From Eledone cirrhosa (taxonomy: Eukaryota): a stretch of DNA of 64,000 nt. Below the pieces are notes generated by a model that was given only the letters and a program-made list of their open reading frames with translations, searched no databases and had not been told where the DNA came from. The stretch is taken from assembly GCA_964016885.1 (NCBI GenBank), contig CAXHJY010000406.1:1-64000 (forward strand), written 5' to 3'. The first letter of the stretch is position 1, and each line of letters opens with the position of its first letter. The translations under genes and the position numbers were made by a program. Positions 13,555-60,785 of this stretch are shown piece by piece.

Positions 13555-16500
13555 ACCAAGTGCAGAGGGACCAGTGGACAACTGTTCAAAGGAAGAACAG
13601 AAAGCACCGAGACACTGGGAGCAAAAAAAAACAAGTAATGTGCAAGGTTTTCAAGAACGGGACTTGCTGGCATGGAGACAGGGATGGGATGCAGATTCGC
13701 CCACCCCAGGTCTCAAATGAACTATGCCCATCCTACTCGCGAAACATGCCCCAGCCAAAGCCGAAATAAGCCGCTCCAGAAGTATGCTGATGTCGCGCGT
13801 GCTGCACCAGCAAGGAGAAGGCATGCACATGCCGACAAGATACAGATGGCAGCAGCAGAGCAGAAAAATTTTTTGGTGATGGCAGAGAAGATTGTGGGAC
13901 AGCTGACCTAGCTGCATCGTTTCCAGAGCCAGGGTCACCCACACCAGCACTCAAGACCACCACAGCTAAGGGACCCAGAGTGGCCGCTGCTGACACCAGA
14001 CCAGGTGTCATACCGACAGCCATTACTGGCACCCAAAAGTCACACCAGTGCTGCTGCTGAATGTCAGAGGCCTGGTGAAACTCAGTAACATGAGTAAAAT
14101 TTCTACCTGGGAGACTTAGCCATAAGCAATCAAGCACTATGCATGGCACTAACCGAAACGCACCTGACAAGCAGTATAGCAGATGCAGAAATATACTGTA
14201 TTTCGTTTGGACAGGAAGGAGAGAACTCATGGTGGGGTTGCTTTGTATATCCGTGAAGATGTCACACCAATTGTACTGTTGACACATTCAAACTCAGTCT
14301 GTGACACATTCAAACTCAGTCTGTGACACACATAGTACATATGAAGCAACTACAGACAGTAATATGCGTGTCACATATCGGCCACCCGATGCCCCCAGTC
14401 ATGAGGGTAAATTTGAGGATAGCCTAAGTAGGATAGAAGGGGTCCTTGACAAACTGGACCAGGGTCTCAACATCCTACAAAGGTCAAATGGCCTGAGGGC
14501 CACCTCCTCCCTGGAATGACGTCAATAGAACAGAGACAGACGGAATCCCTGCTGGCCCTCACACACAGGCTGTTCATGGAGCAAGCAATACTCCTCCCAA
14601 CAAGAGGCGAAAATGTCCTGGACCTCTGTTTTACAAACAATGAAGTGCTCATCCACAATGTAAAGGTGACACCAACAATTCTCTCGGATCATAACTTAGT
14701 AGAGCTAATGATATGTGGTCCAAGAGAACCAACAGAGACAAAACTACCAAGAAGCTCCGGGACGCTATCCAACCTTAACTTCTACAAGGCTAACTGGAAA
14801 AAGATTAAGTGTGAAATCCGGAAGCAAACATGGAGTGAAAACATCGCCACACAAGACACTAACACACAATTTCAACACTTCATGACAACGATACACACCA
14901 TATGCAAAAAGTGTGTCCCGGAGAAAGAGGCAAACAGACACAAAAATCTTATTCCCAGAGATAGGAAAATCCTTATGAGACGTAGAACTAAACTCTCAAA
15001 CCAGTTGAATAGTCAACAAAACCAAAACAAGAAGGAATCCTATTTGAAACGTGCACTACTTGACACCGAGATTGCACTCAAACTTTCCCATGAAAATGAG
15101 AGGGCAAAGAAAGAGAACAGGGCCATAGAAAATATTAAAACAAACCCTAAAGCCTTCTTTAAATTTGCAAAAGAAACTGCCTCAGTACACTGCAAGATTG
15201 GGCCACTCGTCCATACGGACGGTTCATTAACCGAAAAACCCCAAGAGATATGTGAAATACTGAACGAACAGTACAAAAGTGTCTTCACATGTCCCCTGAG
15301 GCACATGCAAATAACGAAGCCAGAGGAGTTCTTTGATGCCAACACTACATGAAGAAATGGCGACCATTAACCACATAGACATAACGGAGGAGGATGTGGT
15401 GTACGCCATAGATGAAATTAGAACAGACTCAGCTGCTGGACCTGATGGATTCCCAGCAGTTCTCTTAAAAACATGTAAGCGGGCCTTAGCAACTCCACTG
15501 AAGATGCTCTTCAGAAGCTCCTTGGCTAGCGGTGTACTACCCAGGGAGCTGAAAGAAGGCACAATATGCCCTATCCATAAAGGGGGTAGAAGAGCGGAGG
15601 CCAAAAACTATAGGCCAGTCTCCCTGACGTCGCATATCAGTAAGGTCATGGAGCGAGTCGTAAGAAAGAAACTAATCACTTTCCTCGATGAAAATGACTG
15701 CCTGACTAGCACGCAACATGGCTTCCGCCCAGGAAGAAGCTGCCTTACACAGCTGCTACATCACTACGACTGGGTACTGAAACAACTACTAGACAGCTCA
15801 CATGTGAACGTGATATATCTTGACTTTGCGAAGGCCTTTGACAAGGTCGACTACGGAATGATATGTCACAAACTACACGGACTCGGCATAACTTCCTAAA
15901 GGACAGAAGCCAGACAGTCGCAGCAAATGGGGCCCTCTCAAAGGAAACACCAATAACAAGTGGGGTGCCCCAGGGGACAGTCCTGGGACCACGACTGTTT
16001 TTGGTGGCCCTCTCAGACATGCCCTCTGTAGTACATACAACAAGATCCCTCACTAGCTATGCTGATGACACTAAGGTAGCGCAGGCAATCAAAAACCTGG
16101 CTGACGATGCGCTTTAACAACAAGATCTGGAGGCCATACACAAATGGGCGGAAGAAAACAACATGCAGTTTAATGCTGGCAAATTCCAAGCCTTACAATA
16201 CAAAACTCCAAACAAACCTGCAAACACAAATATAGTACAACACAACTACACAGGACCAGGAGGGACCGATATCCCCGTGTCAAAATCGATACAAGATCTG
16301 GGCATAGACATGAGCGATGATGCATCTTTTTCCTCACACATGAAAGTGGCGACAATGTGCAGACGACTCACTGGCTGAATCTTGAGGACTTTCCTTACAA
16401 GAGACCGAGACACCATGTTGACACATGGAGGACATTTGTCCTAAGCCCCCTGGACTACTGCTCCCAGTTGTGGTCACCCCATAGTGTCAAACTAACCATG

Positions 16501-19944: not shown

Positions 19945-20229
19945 AATATATATATATATCTGTATGGGGCTGAGACTTGGACACTGACTAAGAAACTCAC
20001 TCCGATAAAAATATATATATAAATATATATATATAAATGTATATAAATCTAAATATATATAAATAAATATATATAAATATATATAAATATAAATATATAT
20101 AAATATAAATATATATATAAATATAAATATATATATATATTTAGATATATATATATATATTTATATATATTTATATATATTAGAATTGGAGCTCTGAAAT
20201 AGCAATTATATATATGGATGTATATATAC

Positions 20230-20508
20230 TGTATTTTGCAATACACTTTATGCTTAATTAAAAGCATTTTGAAGACCGTAAGCTATTGTTTTAAAGTAGT
20301 GACAAATTCACTTACTTTGATCTCAGCAAATGATCTCGGTAGACAGTAGTTAGCCTTGATAAGCTTCAACAAAAGCGAAACAAGGCCTTGTCGGCTTATC
20401 TCCCCTGTTTGCTGAGATCAAAGTAAGTGAATTTGTCATTACATTAAAACAATAGCTTACGGTCTTCAAAATGCTTTTAATTAAGCATAAAGTGTATTGC
20501 AAAATACA
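20230..20508 (+). mobile_element. Fold-back element (~100 bp arms) with an HHR in the loop
   Basis: Arms 20230-20330 and 20408-20508 are reverse complements. Confidence 0.8.
20352..20396 (+). ncRNA. Type I hammerhead ribozyme, U3-A8 core variant
   Basis: AGCC-UUGAUAA-GCUU caacaa AAGC-GAAA-CAAGGCCUUG-UC-GGCU. Confidence 0.8.
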
Positions 20509-20517
20509 TTATAATAT

Positions 20518-20576
<59 letters not shown>

Positions 20577-20645
20577 AATATATATATAAATATATAAATA
20601 TATATATAAATATATATATAAATATATATATAAATATATATATAA

Positions 20646-20727
<82 letters not shown>

Positions 20728-20802
20728 TATATATATATTTATATATTTATATATATATTTATATATTTATATATATATTTATATATATATATATATATTT
20801 AG

Positions 20803-20833
<31 letters not shown>

Positions 20834-20969
20834 AATATATATATTTATATGTGCGTGGTTTTGTATACCCATGGTAAGGTTTTGCGTATGCTTGTGTATG
20901 TACGTATCTGTTTGCGCGTATGTATTTATTTGTTTCTATTACTTCTGTATTGTATTTATTTACTTTGTT

Positions 20970-30111: not shown

Positions 30112-32390
30112 CATCATCACCATCATCATCACCGTTTTACGTCCGTTCTTCCACGCTAGCATGGGTTAGACGGGTTGTCCTGTTGTGGGCAGTGTCTGGT
30201 CGGCTGACCATGCCTTGCTCATACAGGAACTGATCTGGCTTGATTTCTACAGCTGGATGCCCTTCCTAACACCAACCTCATTTACAGTGAGTGCTGGGTG
30301 CTTTTTCGTGGCGCCTACACGTCCACTTTACAGTGTGGGCTGGGTGCTTTTTTGCCGTGGCACCTCCACGGCCACCTTGCGGTGGGGGGGGGGGGGCATA
30401 TTGTTTATATGCTTCAGCATGTACCCATGGGAGGTCGGGTACCCTGTATTACTGCGTGACGCCAGAAGTCACGGTCGTGTGTCATTGACTTTGAGAGGTG
30501 TAGTTGGGTAAGGTCGGCTTTTATCACCTGATCCCAAGTCATCTTGGGTCTCCCCACTCCGCGGTTTCCATCAACTTCTAGTGCTCTGCACCTTTTTATG
30601 CAGCTGTCATCCTTCATACGCATCACATGTCCATACCAGCGTAACCGCCTCTCCTGCAAGCAGCATTTGATTCCTCTTATGCTCAGTCTCTCTCTCAATT
30701 CCTTTATGCTTTGTCGTTCACGTATATTACTGTTACACATCCATCGGAGCATGCAGGCTTCGTTTCTCTCTAATCTACGTAAGTCTTCCACCTTCAGCGC
30801 CCAGGTCTCACTACCATGCAACATCGCTGTTCGGATACACGCATCATACAGTCTGCCTTTCATTCTGAGGGAGAAGCCTTTTGCAGCTAGCAGTGGTAGT
30901 AGTTCCCTAAACTTCTTCCATCCCGTTCTTACCCTAGTTATTGTACTTTCTGAGCACCCACCTCTGTTGCTAATTCGGTCACCTAGGTAGCAGAAGCTGT
31001 CTACTGTTTCTACAGGGCCCTCCCAGAGATTGGTGGTACTTGTTTCCTGTGGCTGTTTGCTTGCTGTTTCAGCACAGCTGCTGCATGTGAATCCTACATT
31101 CTTAATTAAGCTTCCTGAGATCCCGCTACATCTCTTGTGTACCCATTGTTTGCATTTGGGGCAGAGAATGGAGTTCCTACCTACACCTTTCCTACATACT
31201 GAGCAAGGCCATTTCCCTGAGGGGATCTGGGTTCTGTTTTCTCGTCTACTTACAAGGACCTTAGTCTTTGTCATATTGACTTTGAGGCCCTTTCTCTCTA
31301 GTCCCTGCTTCCAGGTTTGGAATTTATTCTCTAGTTCTACCATAGATTCAGCTATGAGTGCGAGGTCATCAGCATACAGGAGTTCCCATGGGCATCCGGT
31401 CTTAAACTCCTCCGTTATTGCCTGCAGGACTATGATGAACAGGAGAGGGCTAAGAACAGAGCCCTGGTGGACCCCAACCTGTACGCTAAATTCCTCGCTA
31501 TACTCATTGCCAATCCTAACTTTGCTGACTGCTCCCCTATACATGGCTTGTACCGCTTTCACAAGCCATTCATCTACTCCTAGTTTTCTAAGCGCCCACC
31601 AGATTACTGCACGTGGAACTCTGTCAAAGGCTTTCTCAAGGTCGACAAATGCCAAGTAGAGTGGCTTACTTTTAGCTAGGTACTTTTCCTGTAATTGCCT
31701 CACAAGGAAGAGGGCATCAGTGGTGCCTTTCCCTGGTACAAACCCAAATTGCATCTCGTCTATATTCACCCGGTCCCTAATCAGCTGTGCTATAACTCTT
31801 TCTGTTACTTTCATGACCTGGTCCATCAACTTTATACCTCTATAGTTTCCTCTATCTAGTGCATCGCCTTTACCTTTGTAGCAGTTGACAATGATGCTAC
31901 TGCACCAATCTTTTGGTATGGCCCCCTCTAGTATTACCTGGTTAACGATACGTGTGGTTATAGTGTGACCTACAGACCCAGATGCCTTCAGCATCTCGGC
32001 AGCTATACCCGATGGACCGGTTGCCTTCCCTATCTTCATATCTCTGATTGCCTTACTTACTACGCTGCCGCTGACTTGTACTGCTGGTCCCTCTATAGGG
32101 TCTACGTGGGGTAGGGTCTCTTCTTCCCATGCATTCTCCTCATTTAGTAATCTATCATAATGACTCTTCCATGCATCTTTCTTCTCAGCACTTGTGAGGG
32201 CAAGCTCACCTTTATCATTCCGGATACACTTCTCTCCAATGACATCACAACTATCTCTGACACACTGCCTCGCAATCTTGAATACCTCCTGTTTCTGGTC
32301 CTCACGTTGTAAAACATGCTTGAATTTTCTATCCTCTGCTTCCCTCCTAGCTAAGTATACTTGTCGCCTAGCTTCCCTCTTGGTCTCTAT
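30112..32390 (-). mobile_element. RTE-clade LINE, 5'-truncated, RT frame open
   Basis: The non-IY part of ORF 30414-33365 (from ETKREARRQ) has intact RT motifs including LLYADD, the Cys-rich insert and [12 protein letters not shown]; (GAT)n tail. Confidence 0.95.
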
Positions 32391-39939: not shown

Positions 39940-42265
39940 TGGAAAAATTTGAACAGGGACAAAACAGAGAGGCAGTACAATAAATGTTTATTAATTTCAC
40001 GCTCAGGAGAGTGGGGGGTAGGTGGGGGACGACGTTTCGGGCATAAGCCCTTCCTCAGGTGAGAAGTGTGTGGGAACAGAGTTCAAAAGGTGTGTAGGGG
40101 AGTGGTGGAGAGACATATAGCGAAAGGAAACGGTGCGAATGAAAAATTAACAAATAAAGATAAAAAATAAAAATAAAGCATGATCAAAATACAAGGAATG
40201 AGAAAATTTAAAAATAAAGGCATGATCAAAATAAACTGAAATTAAAAGGGGGGTAAACAGGTGGTGGAAGGGTGTGGGGTGAGTAGGAGTGGTGGCGGGT
40301 GGAGTGGGGAGAGGGAGACGGGGTGTCCGAGCGGGGATGGCTGAAGGTGGTGTGTGTGTGTGTAGGTGTGCGTGTGCGTGTGTGTGTGTGAAAGTAAGGG
40401 TTGGGGGAAGAACGGGGTTGCATGTTCAGGAAGAGGTGTGTGTGGGGAGTGTTTTTGTGGATCGGAGTGTCTGTGCGTGTGTGGATAGGGGGGTGGGGGG
40501 AGAGGAATCAGGAGGCTGAGGGTGTAAATATGTGGTGGGAAGCACGTGTGTGTGGGGTTTAAGCGTGTTGTGGTGTGGGTGGCGTGTGGAGAAAAAAATT
40601 TTTTTGGGATGTGTGTGGGTGAGTTATATAGGTGATGACGTAAAAGGATGGTTGAAAAGTTGGTAAGTTCCAAGGATGTTTGGAGGATTGGTTATAAGTC
40701 AATTTCTGCGTGTGGGTAATCCATGAAGCGGTGGTCGGAAGAGGAGAGATGTGGGGTGCGCGCACAACAGGAAGTGGTCAGCAGTGGGAGTGCTGTGGTC
40801 TGTTGGTGCTGGGAGGTGGTCAGAAGGGCATAGCAGCAGTCGGTGGAATGGTAAGGGGGCGAGGATGGGTAGGTGTGAAAGTTGGAGTGAGGAGGGTGTG
40901 TGTGTGTGTGTGTGTATATTAGTAGGGGTGTTAGTGGGATGAGTGAGTGTGGAGCGGGGGTGTGGGTGGAGCGGGGAGAGAAGGGTGTGTGTGGTTCTAT
41001 GGAGGGAGTGTGGTGTACTGGTGTGTGTGTAGTTTGGTGAAGAGGTGTTAGTGGGTGTTAGTATACGGGAGGTGGGGAGGGGTTGAATGCAGGTGTGAGT
41101 GGGGGTTAGTGGTGGTAGGGTGTGTAGAGTTGGTGGTGTACGAGGGTGTGTGGGTACGTGTGCATGGGGTTGGGGGTGTTAGTGATGTTAGTTGCGTGTG
41201 GGGTGGGTGGTGTAAGTGGGTGCGTGTGTGCGTGTGATAAGGAGGGGGGAGGAGGAGAAGAGGGGAGGGAAGGGATGTTAGTATGTTAGTTGGGGAAGGG
41301 TGGTCAGATGAGGGGAGGAGTGGAGGTGTTAGTATTGTTAGTGTGGGGTGGGCGGTGAAAAGGAGGGGTGTGTTAGTGGTGTTAGTGGGGGATAAGTGTG
41401 TGTGTGGGGGGGGGGTCGAACGCTAAAGGAATAAGGGTGGGGAGTTCAGGCCGGGGGGAGTGTGGGTCTGTAAGATGAAGATAGTGCGTTGTTCGACCGT
41501 AAGGCGATGGGCGGGTGTTCCGTGGCACTGGAGTAGGCCACAGACTGTGAGATGGCGTGCGGAGTGTCCAGGGCCACCAAAGTGGCGGGCGATGGGGGAA
41601 CTGCCCCCGAGACGAATATCCCGGAGGTGCTCCGTGACTCGGTCCGCCAGGCGACATCCCGTCTGTCCGACATAAGTCGCGCTGCACTCCGTGCAACAAA
41701 GTCCGTAGACTAGGTTGGAGGAGGTGCAGCGGAAGGCATGCCGGACCGAGAGAGAGTGGCCGTTGGGACCCTGGAAGGTGGTGGTGTTGGTGATGTGGGG
41801 ACAGGTGTTGCAGCGGGGCCTAGAACAGGGAAAGGAACCGGGGGGGGGGGAACAGAGCGTGGGTTGGGGGGTAGGGAGCTGTGGACGAGGAGGGTGCGGA
41901 GATTGCGTGCGCGTTTGAAGGAGGGGAGTGGTGGGGTTGGGAAGATGTGGGAGGTGGAGGGGTCGGACTGGAGGCGTCAGAAGAGGCGGCGGATGGTGCG
42001 GTGGAGGGGTAAGGTGGAGGGGTGGTAGGTGATGGGGAGACGGTGGGTGGGTGTGCGGTGGCGTGGGGTGAGGGTGGTGGAGCGGGGGATAGCACGGGCG
42101 CAGGTGAGAGCGGTGTAGACGAGAGAGGGGGGGTAACCTCTGCGGATGAAATGGCTGACTAGGGAAAGGGCCTGGGACTCGAAGTCAGCATCACGGCTAC
42201 AGAGGTGGCGGATCCTGAGAAGTTGGGAGTAGGGAATGGAGTGTTTAGTGTGGGAGGTGGGAAGA
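39940..42265 (-). mobile_element. 5'-truncated Penelope-like element (RT thumb + GIY-YIG + long 3' region + HHR)
   Basis: HSIPYSQLLRIRHLCS...RRGYP; NLVYGLCCTECSATYVGQTGCRLADRVTEH...PPGLN (GIY-YIG, stop near 41423); HHR core at 40028-40062. Confidence 0.88.
40028..40062 (-). ncRNA. Minimal hammerhead core in the PLE terminal region
   Basis: CUGAGGA-AGGGC uuau GCCC-GAAA-CGUCG-UC; stem I is poorly paired. Confidence 0.55.
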
Positions 42266-56868: not shown

Positions 56869-59800
56869 TTATCTCCAGCCTGTATAGGTTGGCCACTGGT
56901 GTAGGAGGGAGTTTGTTGCTGCTGCCCTTAGGTTTCCCTCGTGTCTTGCTGTGGGCTCATCCGCGATCCTGGATAACAAGGTGTCGAGATGTTTCTTAAA
57001 GACATCCACCTCCACGTCATGCAAGTCTCGCAGATGCCTCGGCAGCCTGTTGAAGAGTTGAGGGTCCTTGAATCCCAGGCTATTGCAATACCTGCTCCTT
57101 ATTCTAGATGTGGAAGACGGGACCTTTGGCACCACACAGTGACGTCCTGTTCGACGGTTGGTCCAGCTCCCAATGCCAAAGTTTGGTGCTAGTCCCTCCA
57201 GGATTTTCCACATGTAGATCACTGCGTATCTCTCCCGTCTTCGCTCCAAGGAGTAGAGGTTCAGTTCCTTCAGCCTCTCCCAGTAGCTTGTCTCCCTCAT
57301 CTTGGCAATCCTCTTGGTGTAGCTTCGCTGGATTGCCTCAAGCTCTGTGGTTAGTTTGACACTATGGGGTGACCACAGCTGGGAGCAGTAGTCCAGGCGG
57401 CTTAGGACAAAAGTCCTCCACAGTGTCAACATGGTGTCTCGATCTCTTGTAAGGAAAGTCCTCAAGATCCAGCCAGCGAATCGTCTACATGCTGTCGCCA
57501 CCTTCATGATATGTGAAGAAAAAGATGCATCATCGCTCATGTCTATGCCCAGGTCTCGTATCGATTTTGACACGGGGATATCGGTCCCTCCTGGTCCTGT
57601 GTAGCTGTGTTCCGCTATATTTGTGTTTGTGTTTGCAGGTTTGTATTGTAGGGCTTGGAATTTGCCAGCATTAAACTGCATGTTGTTTTCTTCCGCCCAT
57701 CTGTATATGGCATCCAGATCCTGCTGTAAGAGGGCAGCGTCAGCCGGGTTTTTGATTGCCTGTGCTACCTTAGTGTCATCAGCATAGCTAGTGAGGGATG
57801 TTGTTGCATGCACCACAGAGGGCATGTCCGAGAGAGCCACCAAAAACAGTAGTGGTCCCACGACTGTCCCCTGAGGCACCCCACTTGTTATCGGTGTTTC
57901 CCTCGAGAGGGCCCCATTTGCTGCGACTGCCTGGCTTCTGTCCCTCAGGAAGCCATGCAGCCACTCACCTACTTTTCCAGTTATGCCGAGTCCGTGTAGT
58001 TTGTGACATATCATTCCGTGGTCGACCTTGTCAAAGGCCTTCGCAAAGTCAAGATATATCACGTCTACATGTGAGCTGTCTAGTAGCTGTCTCAGTACCC
58101 AGTCGTAGTGATGTAGCAGCTGTGTAAGGCAGCTTCTTCCTGGGCGGAAGCCATGTTGCGTGCTAGTCAGGCGGTCATTTTCTTCGAGGAAAGTGATTAG
58201 TTTCTTTCTGACGACTCGCTCCATGACCTTACTGATATGCGACGTCAGGGAGACTGGCCTATAGTTCTTGGCCTCCGCTCTACTACCTCCTTTATGGATA
58301 GGGCATATTGTGCCTTCTTTCAGCTCCCTGGGTAGTACACCACTAGCCAAGGAGCTTCTGAAGAGCATCTTCAGTGGAGTTGCTAAGGCCCGCTTACATA
58401 TTTTTAGGAGAACTGCTGGGAATCCATCAGGTCCAGCAGCCGAGTCTGTTCTAATTTCATCAATGGCGTACACCACATCCTCCTCCGTTATGTCTATGTG
58501 GTTGATGGTTGCCATTTCTTGATGTAGTGTTGTGGCATCAAAGAACTCCTCTGGCTTCGTTATTTGCATGTGCCTCAGTGGACATGTGAAGACACTCTTG
58601 TACTGTTCGTTCAGTATTTCACATATCTCTTGGGGATTTTCGGTTAATGAACCGTCCGTGTGGAAGAGTGGTCCAATCTTGCAGTGTACTGAGGCAGTTT
58701 CTTTTGCAAATTTAAAGAAGGCCTTAGGGTTTGTTTTAATGTTTTCTATGGCCCTGTTCTCTTTCCTTGCCCTCTCATTCTCATGTGAAAGCTTGAGTGC
58801 AATCTCGGTGTCAAGTAGTGCACGTTTCAAATAGGATTCCTTCTTGTTTTGGTTTTGTTGACTATTCAACTGGTTTGAGAGTTTAGTTCTACGTCTCATA
58901 AGGATTTTCCTATCTCTGGGAATAAGATTTTTGTGTCTGTTTGCCTCTTTCTCCGGGACACACTTTTTGCATATGGTGTGTATCGTTGTCATGAAGTGTT
59001 GAAATTGTGTGTTAGTGTCTTGTGTGGCGATGTTTGCACTCCATGTTTGCTTCCGGATTTCACTCTTAATCTTCTTCCAGTCAGCCCCGTAGAAGTTAAG
59101 GCTGGATAGCGTCCCGGAGCTTCTTGGTTGTTTTGTCTCTGTTGGTTCTCTTGGACCACATATCATTAGCTCTACCAAGTTATGATCCGAGAGAATTGTT
59201 GGTGTCACCTTTACATTGTGGATGAGCACTTCGTTGTTTGTAAAACAGAGGTCCAGGACATTTTCGCCTCTTGTTGGGAGGAGTATTGCTTGCTCCATGA
59301 ACAGCCTGTGTGTGAGGGCCAGCAGGGATTCCGTCTGTCTCTGTTCTATTGACGTCATTCCAGGGAGGAGGTGGCCCTCAGGCCATTTGACCTTTGGTAG
59401 GTTGAAGTCTCCCAGCAGTAGGATGTTGAGACCCTGGTCCAGTTTGTCAAGGACCTCTTCTATCCTACTTAGGCTATCCTCAAATTTACCCTCATGACTG
59501 GGGGCATCGGGCGGCCGATATGTGACACATATTACCGTCTGTAGTTGCTTCATATGTATTATCAGTGTGTCACAGACTGAGTTTGAATGTGTCAACAGAA
59601 CAATTGGTGTGACATCTTCACGGATATACAGAGCAACCCCACCATGAGTTCTCTCCTTCCTGTCCGAACGAAATACAGTATATTTCGGTATATGTATTTC
59701 TGCATCTGCTATACTGCTTGTCAGGTGCGTTTCGGTTAGTGCCATGCATAGTGCTTGATTGCTTATGGCTAAGTCTCCCAGGTAGGAAATTTTACTCATG

Positions 59801-59910
59801 TTGCTGAGTTTCACCAGGCCCCTGACATTCAGCAGCAGCACTGGTGTGACTTTTGGGGTGCCAGTAATGGCTGTCGGTATGACACCTGGTCTGGTGTCAG
59901 CAGCGGCCAC
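56869..59910 (-). CDS. LINE ORF2: APE endonuclease + reverse transcriptase (1013 aa)
   Basis: [28 protein letters not shown] (APE); [31 protein letters not shown] (RT); SLERRRERY. Confidence 0.95.
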
Positions 59911-60785
59911 TCTGGGTCCCTTAACTGCGGTGGTCTCGAGTGCTGGTGTGGATGACCCTGGCTCTGGAGACGATGCAGCCAGGTCAGCTGTCCCACAATC
60001 TTCTCTGCCATCACTAAAAAATTTTTCTGATCTGCTGCTGCCATCTGTATCTCGTCGGCATGTGCGTGCCTTCTCCTTGCTGGTGCAGCACGCGCGACAT
60101 CAGCATACTTCTGGAGCGGCTTATTTCGGCTTTGGCATGTTGCGCGAGTATGATGGGCATAGTTCGTTTGAGACCTAGGGTGGGCGAATCTGCATCCCAT
60201 CCCTGTCTCTCCATACCAGCATGTCCCGTTCTTGAAAAACTTGCACATTACTTGGTGTTTTTTGCTCCCAGTGTCTCGGTGCTTTCTGTTCTTTCTTTGA
60301 ACAGTTGTCCACTGGTCCCTCTGCGCTTGGTTCTCCTTCGGAAGGTGATTTCGCTTTTCACCTTTGCCCTTAGCTTGTTGGTTGCCCGGCCTGCCTTCCC
60401 TGCCTGTAGCGGAGGGTATATCAGTTTCTTTCAGGTCCGTGCTTGTGCTCTCCTCCTTTTCTTTTTCCCTTTCCTTTTCCTCTTCCTTTTCCCTCTCCTT
60501 CTCCTCATCCCTCCCTTCGGTTTTCTCCTCCCTGAGGACACGGCTTAGCATCGCCATATGAGGCGCTATGAGGACATACGCCTTCTCAATTTCTTTTCTC
60601 TTTCTCTCTATCTGTACCAGGGTCCTCATAAACCCATGGCTCTTCAGGTTCTCCGCCATCTTTTTGCTTGGTGGAGACCCATCAGCCATAGTCCACCCCT
60701 TGATCAAAACCGCTAGTTCAATCTTCGACCAGTTTCGCTGACTCCTGATTTCACATTTTTCCCATTTTTCCTGCATGCAGTCCAT
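59829..60785 (-). CDS. LINE ORF1 (318 aa): Myb/trihelix-like N-terminus, charged linker, CCCH zinc finger
   Basis: WSKIELAVLIKGW...MAENLKSHGFMRTLVQIERKRKEIEKAY; CKFFKNGTCWYGETGMGCRFAHP. Confidence 0.75.
   Translation of the reverse strand: MDCMQEKWEKCEIRSQRNWSKIELAVLIKGWTMADGSPPSKKMAENLKSHGFMRTLVQIERKRKEIEKAYVLIAPHMAMLSRVLREEKTEGRDEEKEREKEEEKEREKEKEESTSTDLKETDIPSATGREGRPGNQQAKGKGEKRNHLPKENQAQRDQWTTVQRKNRKHRDTGSKKHQVMCKFFKNGTCWYGETGMGCRFAHPRSQTNYAHHTRATCQSRNKPLQKYADVARAAPARRRHAHADEIQMAAADQKNFLVMAEKIVGQLTWLHRLQSQGHPHQHSRPPQLRDPEWPLLTPDQVSYRQPLLAPQKSHQCCC

What the first reader, a model, noticed from the sequence alone, without database searches (positions are those of the whole stretch)
20230..20508. 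Hairpin element presenting a compact U3-A8 hammerhead in its loop
Seen: ~100 bp inverted arms enclose a 77-nt loop holding a well-formed 45-nt HHR (AGCC-UUGAUAA-GCUU/AAGC-GAAA-CAAGGCCUUG-UC-GGCU). Established: C3-G8 is a tertiary pair and the U3-A8 swap is a compensatory change, which supports a real ribozyme. Here the ribozyme is not sequestered by the arms, so the RNA could be a self-cleaving long hairpin. It is MITE-like in shape but probably PLE-derived (inference).
Basis: partly seen in the sequence, partly recalled or inferred. Interest (0 to 1): 0.75.

Follow-up and report, generated by a model that had tools for sequence, protein, structure and literature searches.

The report
Two-armed insertion of a Penelope-type retrozyme
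This hairpin is one short copy of a 316-base repeat that carries a hammerhead-ribozyme motif and occurs over 1,500 times in the genome; its two arms likely arose when a Penelope-type retrotransposon enzyme copied the repeat into both sides of one cut, so it is likely an ordinary insertion by-product and not a purpose-built self-cutting hairpin.

Summary
The hairpin (101-bp arms, 77-nt loop) and the U3-A8 type I hammerhead (20352-20396) are real. The hairpin is not a unit. The element is larger (about 20179-20533) and consists of two overlapping pieces of a ~316-nt tandem monomer, joined head to head with both 3' ends facing out into (TA)n. The monomer has 1,537 exact 26-mer matches and a >=20-kb array. 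In 47 insertions taken in chromosome order, 30 are two-armed; 27 of 30 pair a short end with an end 26 nt longer, and inner breakpoints fit a uniform spread. The window's junction occurs once in the genome. Autonomous Neptune-type Penelope-like elements here show the same build. The ribozyme is conserved with compensatory changes, but its palindromic helix III is predicted to favour a dimer, and this lone copy has lost 7 nt of helix I and is predicted to misfold. Verdict: new member of the non-LTR retrozymes with the known PLE insertion signature; not a MITE; self-cleavage of this hairpin unlikely and untested.

The parts
20179..20330 (-). Inverted, 5'-truncated arm of the retrozyme monomer (monomer positions m166 to m16; m1 = first base after the predicted cut); 3' end faces left
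   Evidence: BLAST to a natural monomer, 96% (BLAST runs on to 20174 through TA flank); junction m16/m248 with 2-nt overlap
20179..20204 (-). 26-nt 'tail' (m141-m166), present on this arm only: the long-end type
   Evidence: Sequence against the monomer; one long plus one short end in 27 of 30 two-armed insertions
20331..20533 (+). Sense, 5'-truncated arm (m248 through the ribozyme cut site to the short end, m120-m140; right limit 20520-20533 is blurred by TA repeats)
20352..20396 (+). Type I hammerhead motif: 4-bp helix I, U3-A8 core, 4-bp helix II, 10-nt palindromic helix III; predicted cut after C20392
   Evidence: conservation and covariation
20331..20346 (+). Remnant 5' strand of the extended helix I, with a 7-nt deletion at about 20345 relative to its closest relatives (L002, L004, L009); its partner 20404-20419 is taken by the left arm in the hairpin
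   Evidence: alignment A1; folds
20230..20508 (.).
20010..20178 (.). Left (TA)n-rich target flank
20534..20848 (.). Right (TA)n-rich target flank; no target-site duplication can be read

Best explanation
The hairpin is one short, unique insertion of a ~316-nt non-coding tandem repeat with a U3-A8 hammerhead motif (a non-LTR retrozyme), built of two overlapping truncated copies joined head to head, likely made by the reverse transcriptase-endonuclease of a Penelope-like element (PLE). Shown: monomer, copy number, 3'-out geometry, one long and one short end, variable junction, (TA)n target. Inferred from the PLE literature: the enzyme cuts both strands of (TA)n DNA and starts reverse transcription on each side at one of two fixed internal RNA sites (about m140 and m166); the two cDNAs stop at random and are joined, often by microhomology. 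The template ran through the ribozyme cut site, so it was uncut multimer or re-ligated circle. The ribozyme's likely job is in tandem copies, as a dimer, to release and circularise monomers. In this copy the ribozyme lies in the loop only because one arm stopped before it and the other after it; it is predicted to cleave poorly.
For: All 27 distinct top hits of the hairpin map on one tandem monomer. 926+611 exact matches of a 26-mer, control 0; array of 316/304-nt units over >=20 kb. Positional sample of 47 insertions: 30 two-armed, all minus-then-plus, 16 one-armed, 1 complex; 27 of 30 with one short and one long end, 0 with two alike (3 with another end); 76 inner breakpoints compatible with uniform (KS p 0.21); junction overlap >=2 nt in 21 of 30 against 18% in a simulation of exact matches; lengths 364-2092 nt. 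69 of 76 arms cross the cut site, 2 of 76 stop within 4 nt of it, 1.9 expected. Window junction found once, itself. RT + GIY-YIG elements of this genome show two-armed insertions in (TA)n with two end types, +82/+143 from their own cut site. Core UUGAUAA in 66 of 69 parsed copies; two-sided changes in helices I-III; sister family has C3-G8. Dimer fold costs 4.3 against 12.0 kcal/mol for two monomer folds in a natural two-unit stretch. Literature: PMC8557442, PMC11167929, PMC4209133, PMC7229834.
Against: No autonomous PLE sharing the monomer sequence was found in 51 GIY-YIG loci (10,596 candidates exist), so the enzyme is inferred from geometry. One top hit has two short ends (L014). The tail is 26 nt, against 30-40 nt in print. 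Fold energies ignore tertiary contacts and protein help, and intact copies also score 1.2-8.3 kcal/mol against the hammerhead fold, so the prediction of poor cleavage is weak. Circle versus uncut multimer is not settled: units within L102 and L107 differ by 8-20 changes.
Confidence: 0.9

Rival explanations
1. The hairpin is a functional self-cleaving long dsRNA kept or spread as a unit, for example a small-RNA precursor opened by its own ribozyme.
For: All core bases are intact and lie outside the arms; any read-through transcript would fold to a -174 kcal/mol hairpin; in 16 of 30 two-armed insertions the arms hold unequal numbers of hammerheads, so a free one is common; several top hits join within the helix I extension, which keeps helix I closed.
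Against: Junction unique; 7-nt deletion in helix I extension; hammerhead fold probability about 1e-7 in the hairpin against about 1e-3 without the left arm; only one hammerhead although helix III favours a duplex (-19.5 kcal/mol) over a hairpin (0.0); it lies in a (TA)n field among retroelement debris.
Confidence: 0.05
2. A single sense copy inserted first and the hairpin arose later by local inverted duplication or fold-back repair, without a two-sided retrotransposition step.
For: Arms of one insertion are more alike than arms of different insertions (1.8 against 4.8 differences, 33 loci; 2.1% against 4.2%, 27 of 30 loci); one-armed copies exist (16 of 47).
Against: The left arm carries 26 nt that the right arm lacks, so it cannot be a copy of it; orientation is always 3'-out and end types are complementary in 27 of 30; the same holds for unrelated autonomous elements.
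Confidence: 0.04
3. It is a MITE: a DNA transposon with long terminal inverted repeats that captured a hammerhead.
For: Inverted arms, small size, TA-rich target, high copy number of the arm sequence.
Against: Ends are asymmetric, inner junctions vary, arms run on into tandem monomers (38 of 60 arms longer than one unit), one-armed copies and a large direct-repeat array exist; no second copy of this junction.
Confidence: 0.01

Closest known systems
Non-LTR retrozymes of animals (Cervera and de la Pena 2020, PMC7229834; Li, Clavereau and Pollet 2026, bioRxiv 10.64898/2026.07.22.740005)
   Same: About 300-nt non-coding monomer, one type I hammerhead per unit, dimers to long arrays, dispersed copies, co-occurrence with PLEs.
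   Different: U3-A8 core fixed in the family; most dispersed copies are head-to-head two-armed insertions with a PLE tail (the word 'inverted' has 0 hits in PMC7229834); circular RNA and cleavage not tested here.
EN+ Penelope-like elements, Neptune type, and their insertion structure (Craig et al. 2021, PMC8557442; Frangieh et al. 2024, PMC11167929)
   Same: Inverted 5'-truncated copy next to the sense copy, tail at one end only, (TA)n target, fixed ends 120-170 nt downstream of the hammerhead cut site.
   Different: No ORF; tail 26 nt; no sequence match to the autonomous families tested beyond the last 7 bases of the long end.
PLE hammerheads with U3-A8 core (Schistosoma Cercyon, about 1,300 hits; Cervera and de la Pena 2014, PMC4209133)
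   Same: U3-A8 covariation, short helix I, palindromic helix III, pairs of motifs on opposite strands 100-700 bp apart.
   Different: Here helix III is longer (9-10 nt), helix II is 4 bp, and helix I continues past an internal loop into a 16-bp extension.
MITEs (recalled from general knowledge)
   Same: Short, inverted ends, many copies.
   Different: No fixed unit, no symmetric termini, tandem monomers.

Membership tests
Type I hammerhead ribozyme | Core bases with a 3-8 pair, GAAA and NUH site | tested here: met
   UUGAUAA, GAAA, GUC in the window; 66 of 69 parsed copies UUGAUAA, 24 of 93 hits not parsed; sister family CUGAUGA
Type I hammerhead ribozyme | Helices I-III supported by compensatory change | tested here: met
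   98% of cells paired, 5 pairs with two-sided change, slid controls 0-1 (43 hand-picked rows of 93, related sequences); four helix II and several palindromic helix III variants in older subfamilies
Type I hammerhead ribozyme | Rfam gathering score | tested here: not met
   HH9 22.1 bits against 52; that model has C3-G8 and a different helix I, so this lowers only membership of RF02275
Type I hammerhead ribozyme | Site-specific self-cleavage | not testable with these tools
   Only fold predictions
Non-LTR retrozyme | Short tandem monomer (about 300 nt) with one type I hammerhead per unit, dimers to multimers | tested here: met
   315-323-nt units in dispersed copies, 316/304 in the array
Non-LTR retrozyme | Non-autonomous (no RT ORF) | tested here: met
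   The whole unit is 316 nt and repeats directly
Non-LTR retrozyme | Expressed as linear and circular monomer RNA | not testable with these tools
PLE-mobilised element | Inverted 5'-truncated copy and tail at one end only | tested here: met
   30 of 47 two-armed; 27 of 30 with one long and one short end
PLE-mobilised element | Microsatellite (TA)n target | tested here: met
   Flanks (read by eye, not counted against a control)
PLE-mobilised element | Homology to the pLTR of an autonomous PLE | tested here: inconclusive
   None in 51 loci of 10,596 GIY-YIG candidates
MITE | Fixed unit with symmetric terminal inverted repeats, copied as a whole | tested here: not met
MITE | Target-site duplication | tested here: inconclusive
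   Both flanks are (TA)n

The most novel reading that the evidence does not exclude
Each two-armed insertion is the footprint of one PLE enzyme dimer working on one circular retrozyme RNA: the two subunits start at two sites 26 nt apart, roll through the ligated ribozyme site for up to six or more laps, and meet. The family would then be a genomic record that animal retrozymes move by rolling-circle, double-primed PLE retrotransposition and are not only amplified locally. Support: strict long/short end pairing, arms crossing the cut site, six near-identical units in L126, four private variants shared by both arms.
Probability: 0.3. Interest if true: 0.6.

Novelty: new member of a known kind. 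Interest (0 to 1): 0.28.

Why it matters
The hairpin itself is ordinary: hairpins with a ribozyme in the loop are an expected by-product of PLE-type insertion and should not be read as designed RNAs or MITEs. The family has some value as a test bed. How retrozymes are mobilised is stated as open in the 2026 preprint (parts 1-3 of 5 read), and how PLEs make inverted structures is stated as open in PMC8557442 (passages read). A young family with over 1,500 copies, two fixed ends and strict end pairing makes both questions countable and gives a small RNA substrate for an in vitro PLE assay.

Tried and rejected
Rfam scan of the whole window failed; only 20150-20600 was scanned. The repeat finder was swamped by (TA)n. 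No RNA holder listed, so expression and cleavage were not examined. Runs X1-X3 (one sample, one study, kind unknown, contigs only, possibly the source of the assembly) hold the family deeply but no piece spans the element; X4-X6 hold 2, 12 and 1 contigs at low depth: no conclusion drawn. Search for the autonomous partner: BLAST and local alignment of the monomer against 51 GIY-YIG loci gave only separate retrozyme insertions. A same-strand pair 2,451 nt apart (L125) was a local duplication, not an ORF between pLTRs. Idea that arms end at the ribozyme cut site: rejected, 2 of 76. Idea of a junction hot spot in the helix I extension: seen in about 9 of 27 top hits, but these were selected by likeness to the query; the marker pattern proved to be a subfamily variant (0 of 30 loci were junctions) and a stricter pattern, which fits one subfamily only, gave 1 match; left open. 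The near-constant loop size among the top hits is a selection effect of the query length. Earlier scan notes: nothing found. Paper searches found no description of this family; subscription journals, Repbase and Dfam were not searched, and no supplements were read, so the family may be catalogued there.

Full report
Observation. The stretch 20230-20508 has 101-bp inverted arms with one A.A mismatch and one G.T pair, enclosing 77 nt. It folds at -174 kcal/mol, z -26.5. The loop holds a type I hammerhead motif at 20352-20396 with U3 (20356), A8 (20361) and a predicted cut after C20392. Rfam finds Hammerhead_HH9 at E 0.0042 but below the curated score.

The thing is larger than the hairpin. A search of the 3.0-Gb own genome gave 1,338 candidates, 40 scored. 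The 30 loci returned are 27 distinct places, the window included. All map on one tandem monomer of 315-318 nt, numbered here from the base after the predicted cut (m1). The window element is an inverted piece m166 to m16 (20179-20330) joined to a sense piece from m248 through the ribozyme to m120-m140 (20331 to 20520-20533). The 101-bp arms are just the overlap of the two pieces. The left piece carries a 26-nt tail that the right lacks. Both flanks are (TA)n.

Family size. An exact 26-mer (m1-26) matches 926 + 611 times, reversed control 0. An arm pattern shared with a sister family matches 5,152 times. One locus is a direct array of alternating 316- and 304-nt units that fills the whole 20 kb fetched.

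A sample not chosen for hairpins. I took the first 100 of the 1,537 matches, all on contig C1, which form 47 clusters. A local duplicate in L125 was counted once, a 31-nt extra hit in L056 was dropped, and L063 was set aside as complex. Thirty are two-armed, all with 3' ends outward; 16 are one-armed. Of the 30, 27 have one end at m137-142 and the other at m164-178; none has two alike; three have another end. Among the 27 top hits, one (L014) has two short ends. The 76 inner breakpoints fit a uniform spread (KS p 0.21). Junction overlaps of 2 nt or more occur in 21 of 30, against 18% in a simulation of exact matches; six junctions have inserted bases; the overlaps come from BLAST limits and may include mismatches. 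Total lengths run from 364 to 2,092 nt, so the window copy (about 355 nt) sits at the short end. Its junction occurs once in the genome. The sample favours young copies with m1-26 intact.

Template. 69 of 76 arms cross the cut site, 38 of 60 arms of two-armed copies exceed one unit, and only 2 of 76 stop within 4 nt of the cut, 1.9 expected. A cut linear monomer cannot be the usual template; it was uncut multimer or circle (inference). L126 has six units differing by 0-1 change, and by 6 from the nearest other insertion sampled; but units in L102 and L107 differ by 8-20. Arms of one insertion are closer than arms of different ones, and four private variants sit on both arms of four insertions; in only 4 of 27 was no other insertion as close, so subfamily structure explains part of this.

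The ribozyme. The core is UUGAUAA in 66 of 69 parsed copies; 24 of 93 hits did not fit the strict pattern. On 43 rows picked by hand from those 93 (36 distinct), 98% of cells pair and five pairs change on both sides, in helix I and its extension, helix II and helix III; slid controls give 0-1. The rows are related, so this counts sequences, not events. Older subfamilies add further helix II and palindromic helix III variants. A sister family, about 78% alike over m2-171 and with the same two ends, has C3-G8, so the 3-8 pair does covary. The motif has been under selection in the family. In this copy, however, 7 nt of the helix I extension are deleted, the left arm takes the other strand of that extension, and the fold model prefers a pairing between the helix I/core bases and helix III: the hammerhead fold costs 9.8 kcal/mol in the hairpin, 4.3 without the left arm, 7.0 in an intact copy of the same variant, 1.2-8.3 across variants. 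Helix III forms a -19.5 kcal/mol self-duplex and no hairpin alone; in a natural two-unit stretch the dimer fold costs 4.3 against 12.0 for two monomer folds. These are nearest-neighbour predictions without tertiary contacts.

The likely enzyme. The genome has 10,596 GIY-YIG candidates. Long frames carry RT and C-terminal GIY-YIG (4 of 5 with both Pfam hits); the 938-aa frame of L160 has the DKG motif and a CxxxCxxC linker, which PMC8557442 gives for Neptune and Nematis; I call it Neptune-type without a tree. That family has its own U3-A8 hammerhead, two end types (+82 and +143 from its cut) and two-armed insertions in (TA)n with one end of each kind (L165, L169, L171, L179); a second family shows the same (L173). 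None of 51 loci shares sequence with the monomer beyond the last 7 bases of the long end, so the exact partner is not identified.

What is in print. PMC8557442 (passages): PLE insertions often have an inverted 5'-truncated copy and a 30-40-bp tail at one end, with (TA)n targets. PMC11167929 (main text read whole; passages): a purified PLE protein cuts and extends both strands of AT-rich DNA, starts at two internal RNA sites that bound the tail, is predicted to dimerise, and its hammerhead cleaves only with protein. PMC4209133 (parts 1-2 of 4): U3-A8 hammerheads in Schistosoma PLEs, palindromic helix III, dimer action, opposite-strand pairs. PMC7229834 (passages): about 300-bp tandem retrozymes expressed as circles. 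bioRxiv 10.64898/2026.07.22.740005 (parts 1-3 of 5): retrozymes as non-autonomous PLE derivatives, mechanism open, 1 of 9 dimers cleaved in vitro. Four searches (listings only for the other papers) found no account of this family; no supplements were read. The MITE comparison rests on recall.

Verdict. A real hammerhead in a real hairpin, but the hairpin is a one-off product of a known insertion pattern. New member of a known kind; interest 0.28. The family's strict end pairing and multi-lap arms are the part worth following.

Noticed in passing
L006:1828-2345; L180-L204: Sister retrozyme family (about 78% alike over m2-171, same two ends, 1,498 candidates) with a C3-G8 hammerhead, a GUU site and a different extended helix I.
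   Followed up: partly
L160:2773-7961 (G000:C1:145,870,772-145,875,960, minus strand); L161, L165, L168, L169, L171: Young autonomous Neptune-type PLE family: 938-aa open frame between two pLTRs 4,979 nt apart, U3-A8 hammerhead, 61-nt tail, two-armed insertions with one long and one short end.
   Followed up: partly
L154; L163, L164, L167, L173; L139; L170: Further PLE families with their own hammerheads; one (L154) has the same UUGAUAA core as the retrozyme but no other similarity found.
   Followed up: partly
L061, L062 (G000:C2:207,689,000-207,708,999): Retrozyme satellite array of at least 20 kb with alternating 316/304-nt units and a recurring ~184-nt insertion at m115; ends not reached.
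   Followed up: partly
window 5646(-)/5729(+), 9631(-)/9714(+), 47103(+), 24764(-), 25447(-), 26819(+): Eight more hammerhead motifs (C3-G8, long helix II, palindromic helix III) of three other families, two as close opposite-strand pairs like the finding.
   Followed up: no
window 3047-4987(-), 10798-12531(+), 30414-32380(-), 14450-15899(+), 56869-60099(-), 41423-42184(-): LINE-type RT frames (RTE-like and CR1/L2-like by eye, recalled labels), one of 1,076 aa, and a GIY-YIG remnant, all set in long (TA)n tracts.
   Followed up: no
L003, L005, L007, L009, L010, L011, L013, L015, L018 near 1590-1690: Two-armed copies joined in register inside the helix I extension (15-21-nt overlap), which leaves a hammerhead at the tip of a long perfect stem; frequency not established.
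   Followed up: partly
L094, L097: Junctions with 13- and 23-nt overlaps at the monomer's internal palindrome around m95-m118.
   Followed up: no
L125 (G000:C1:52,356,396-52,359,499): A two-armed insertion duplicated with its flanks at a 2,451-nt period.
   Followed up: no
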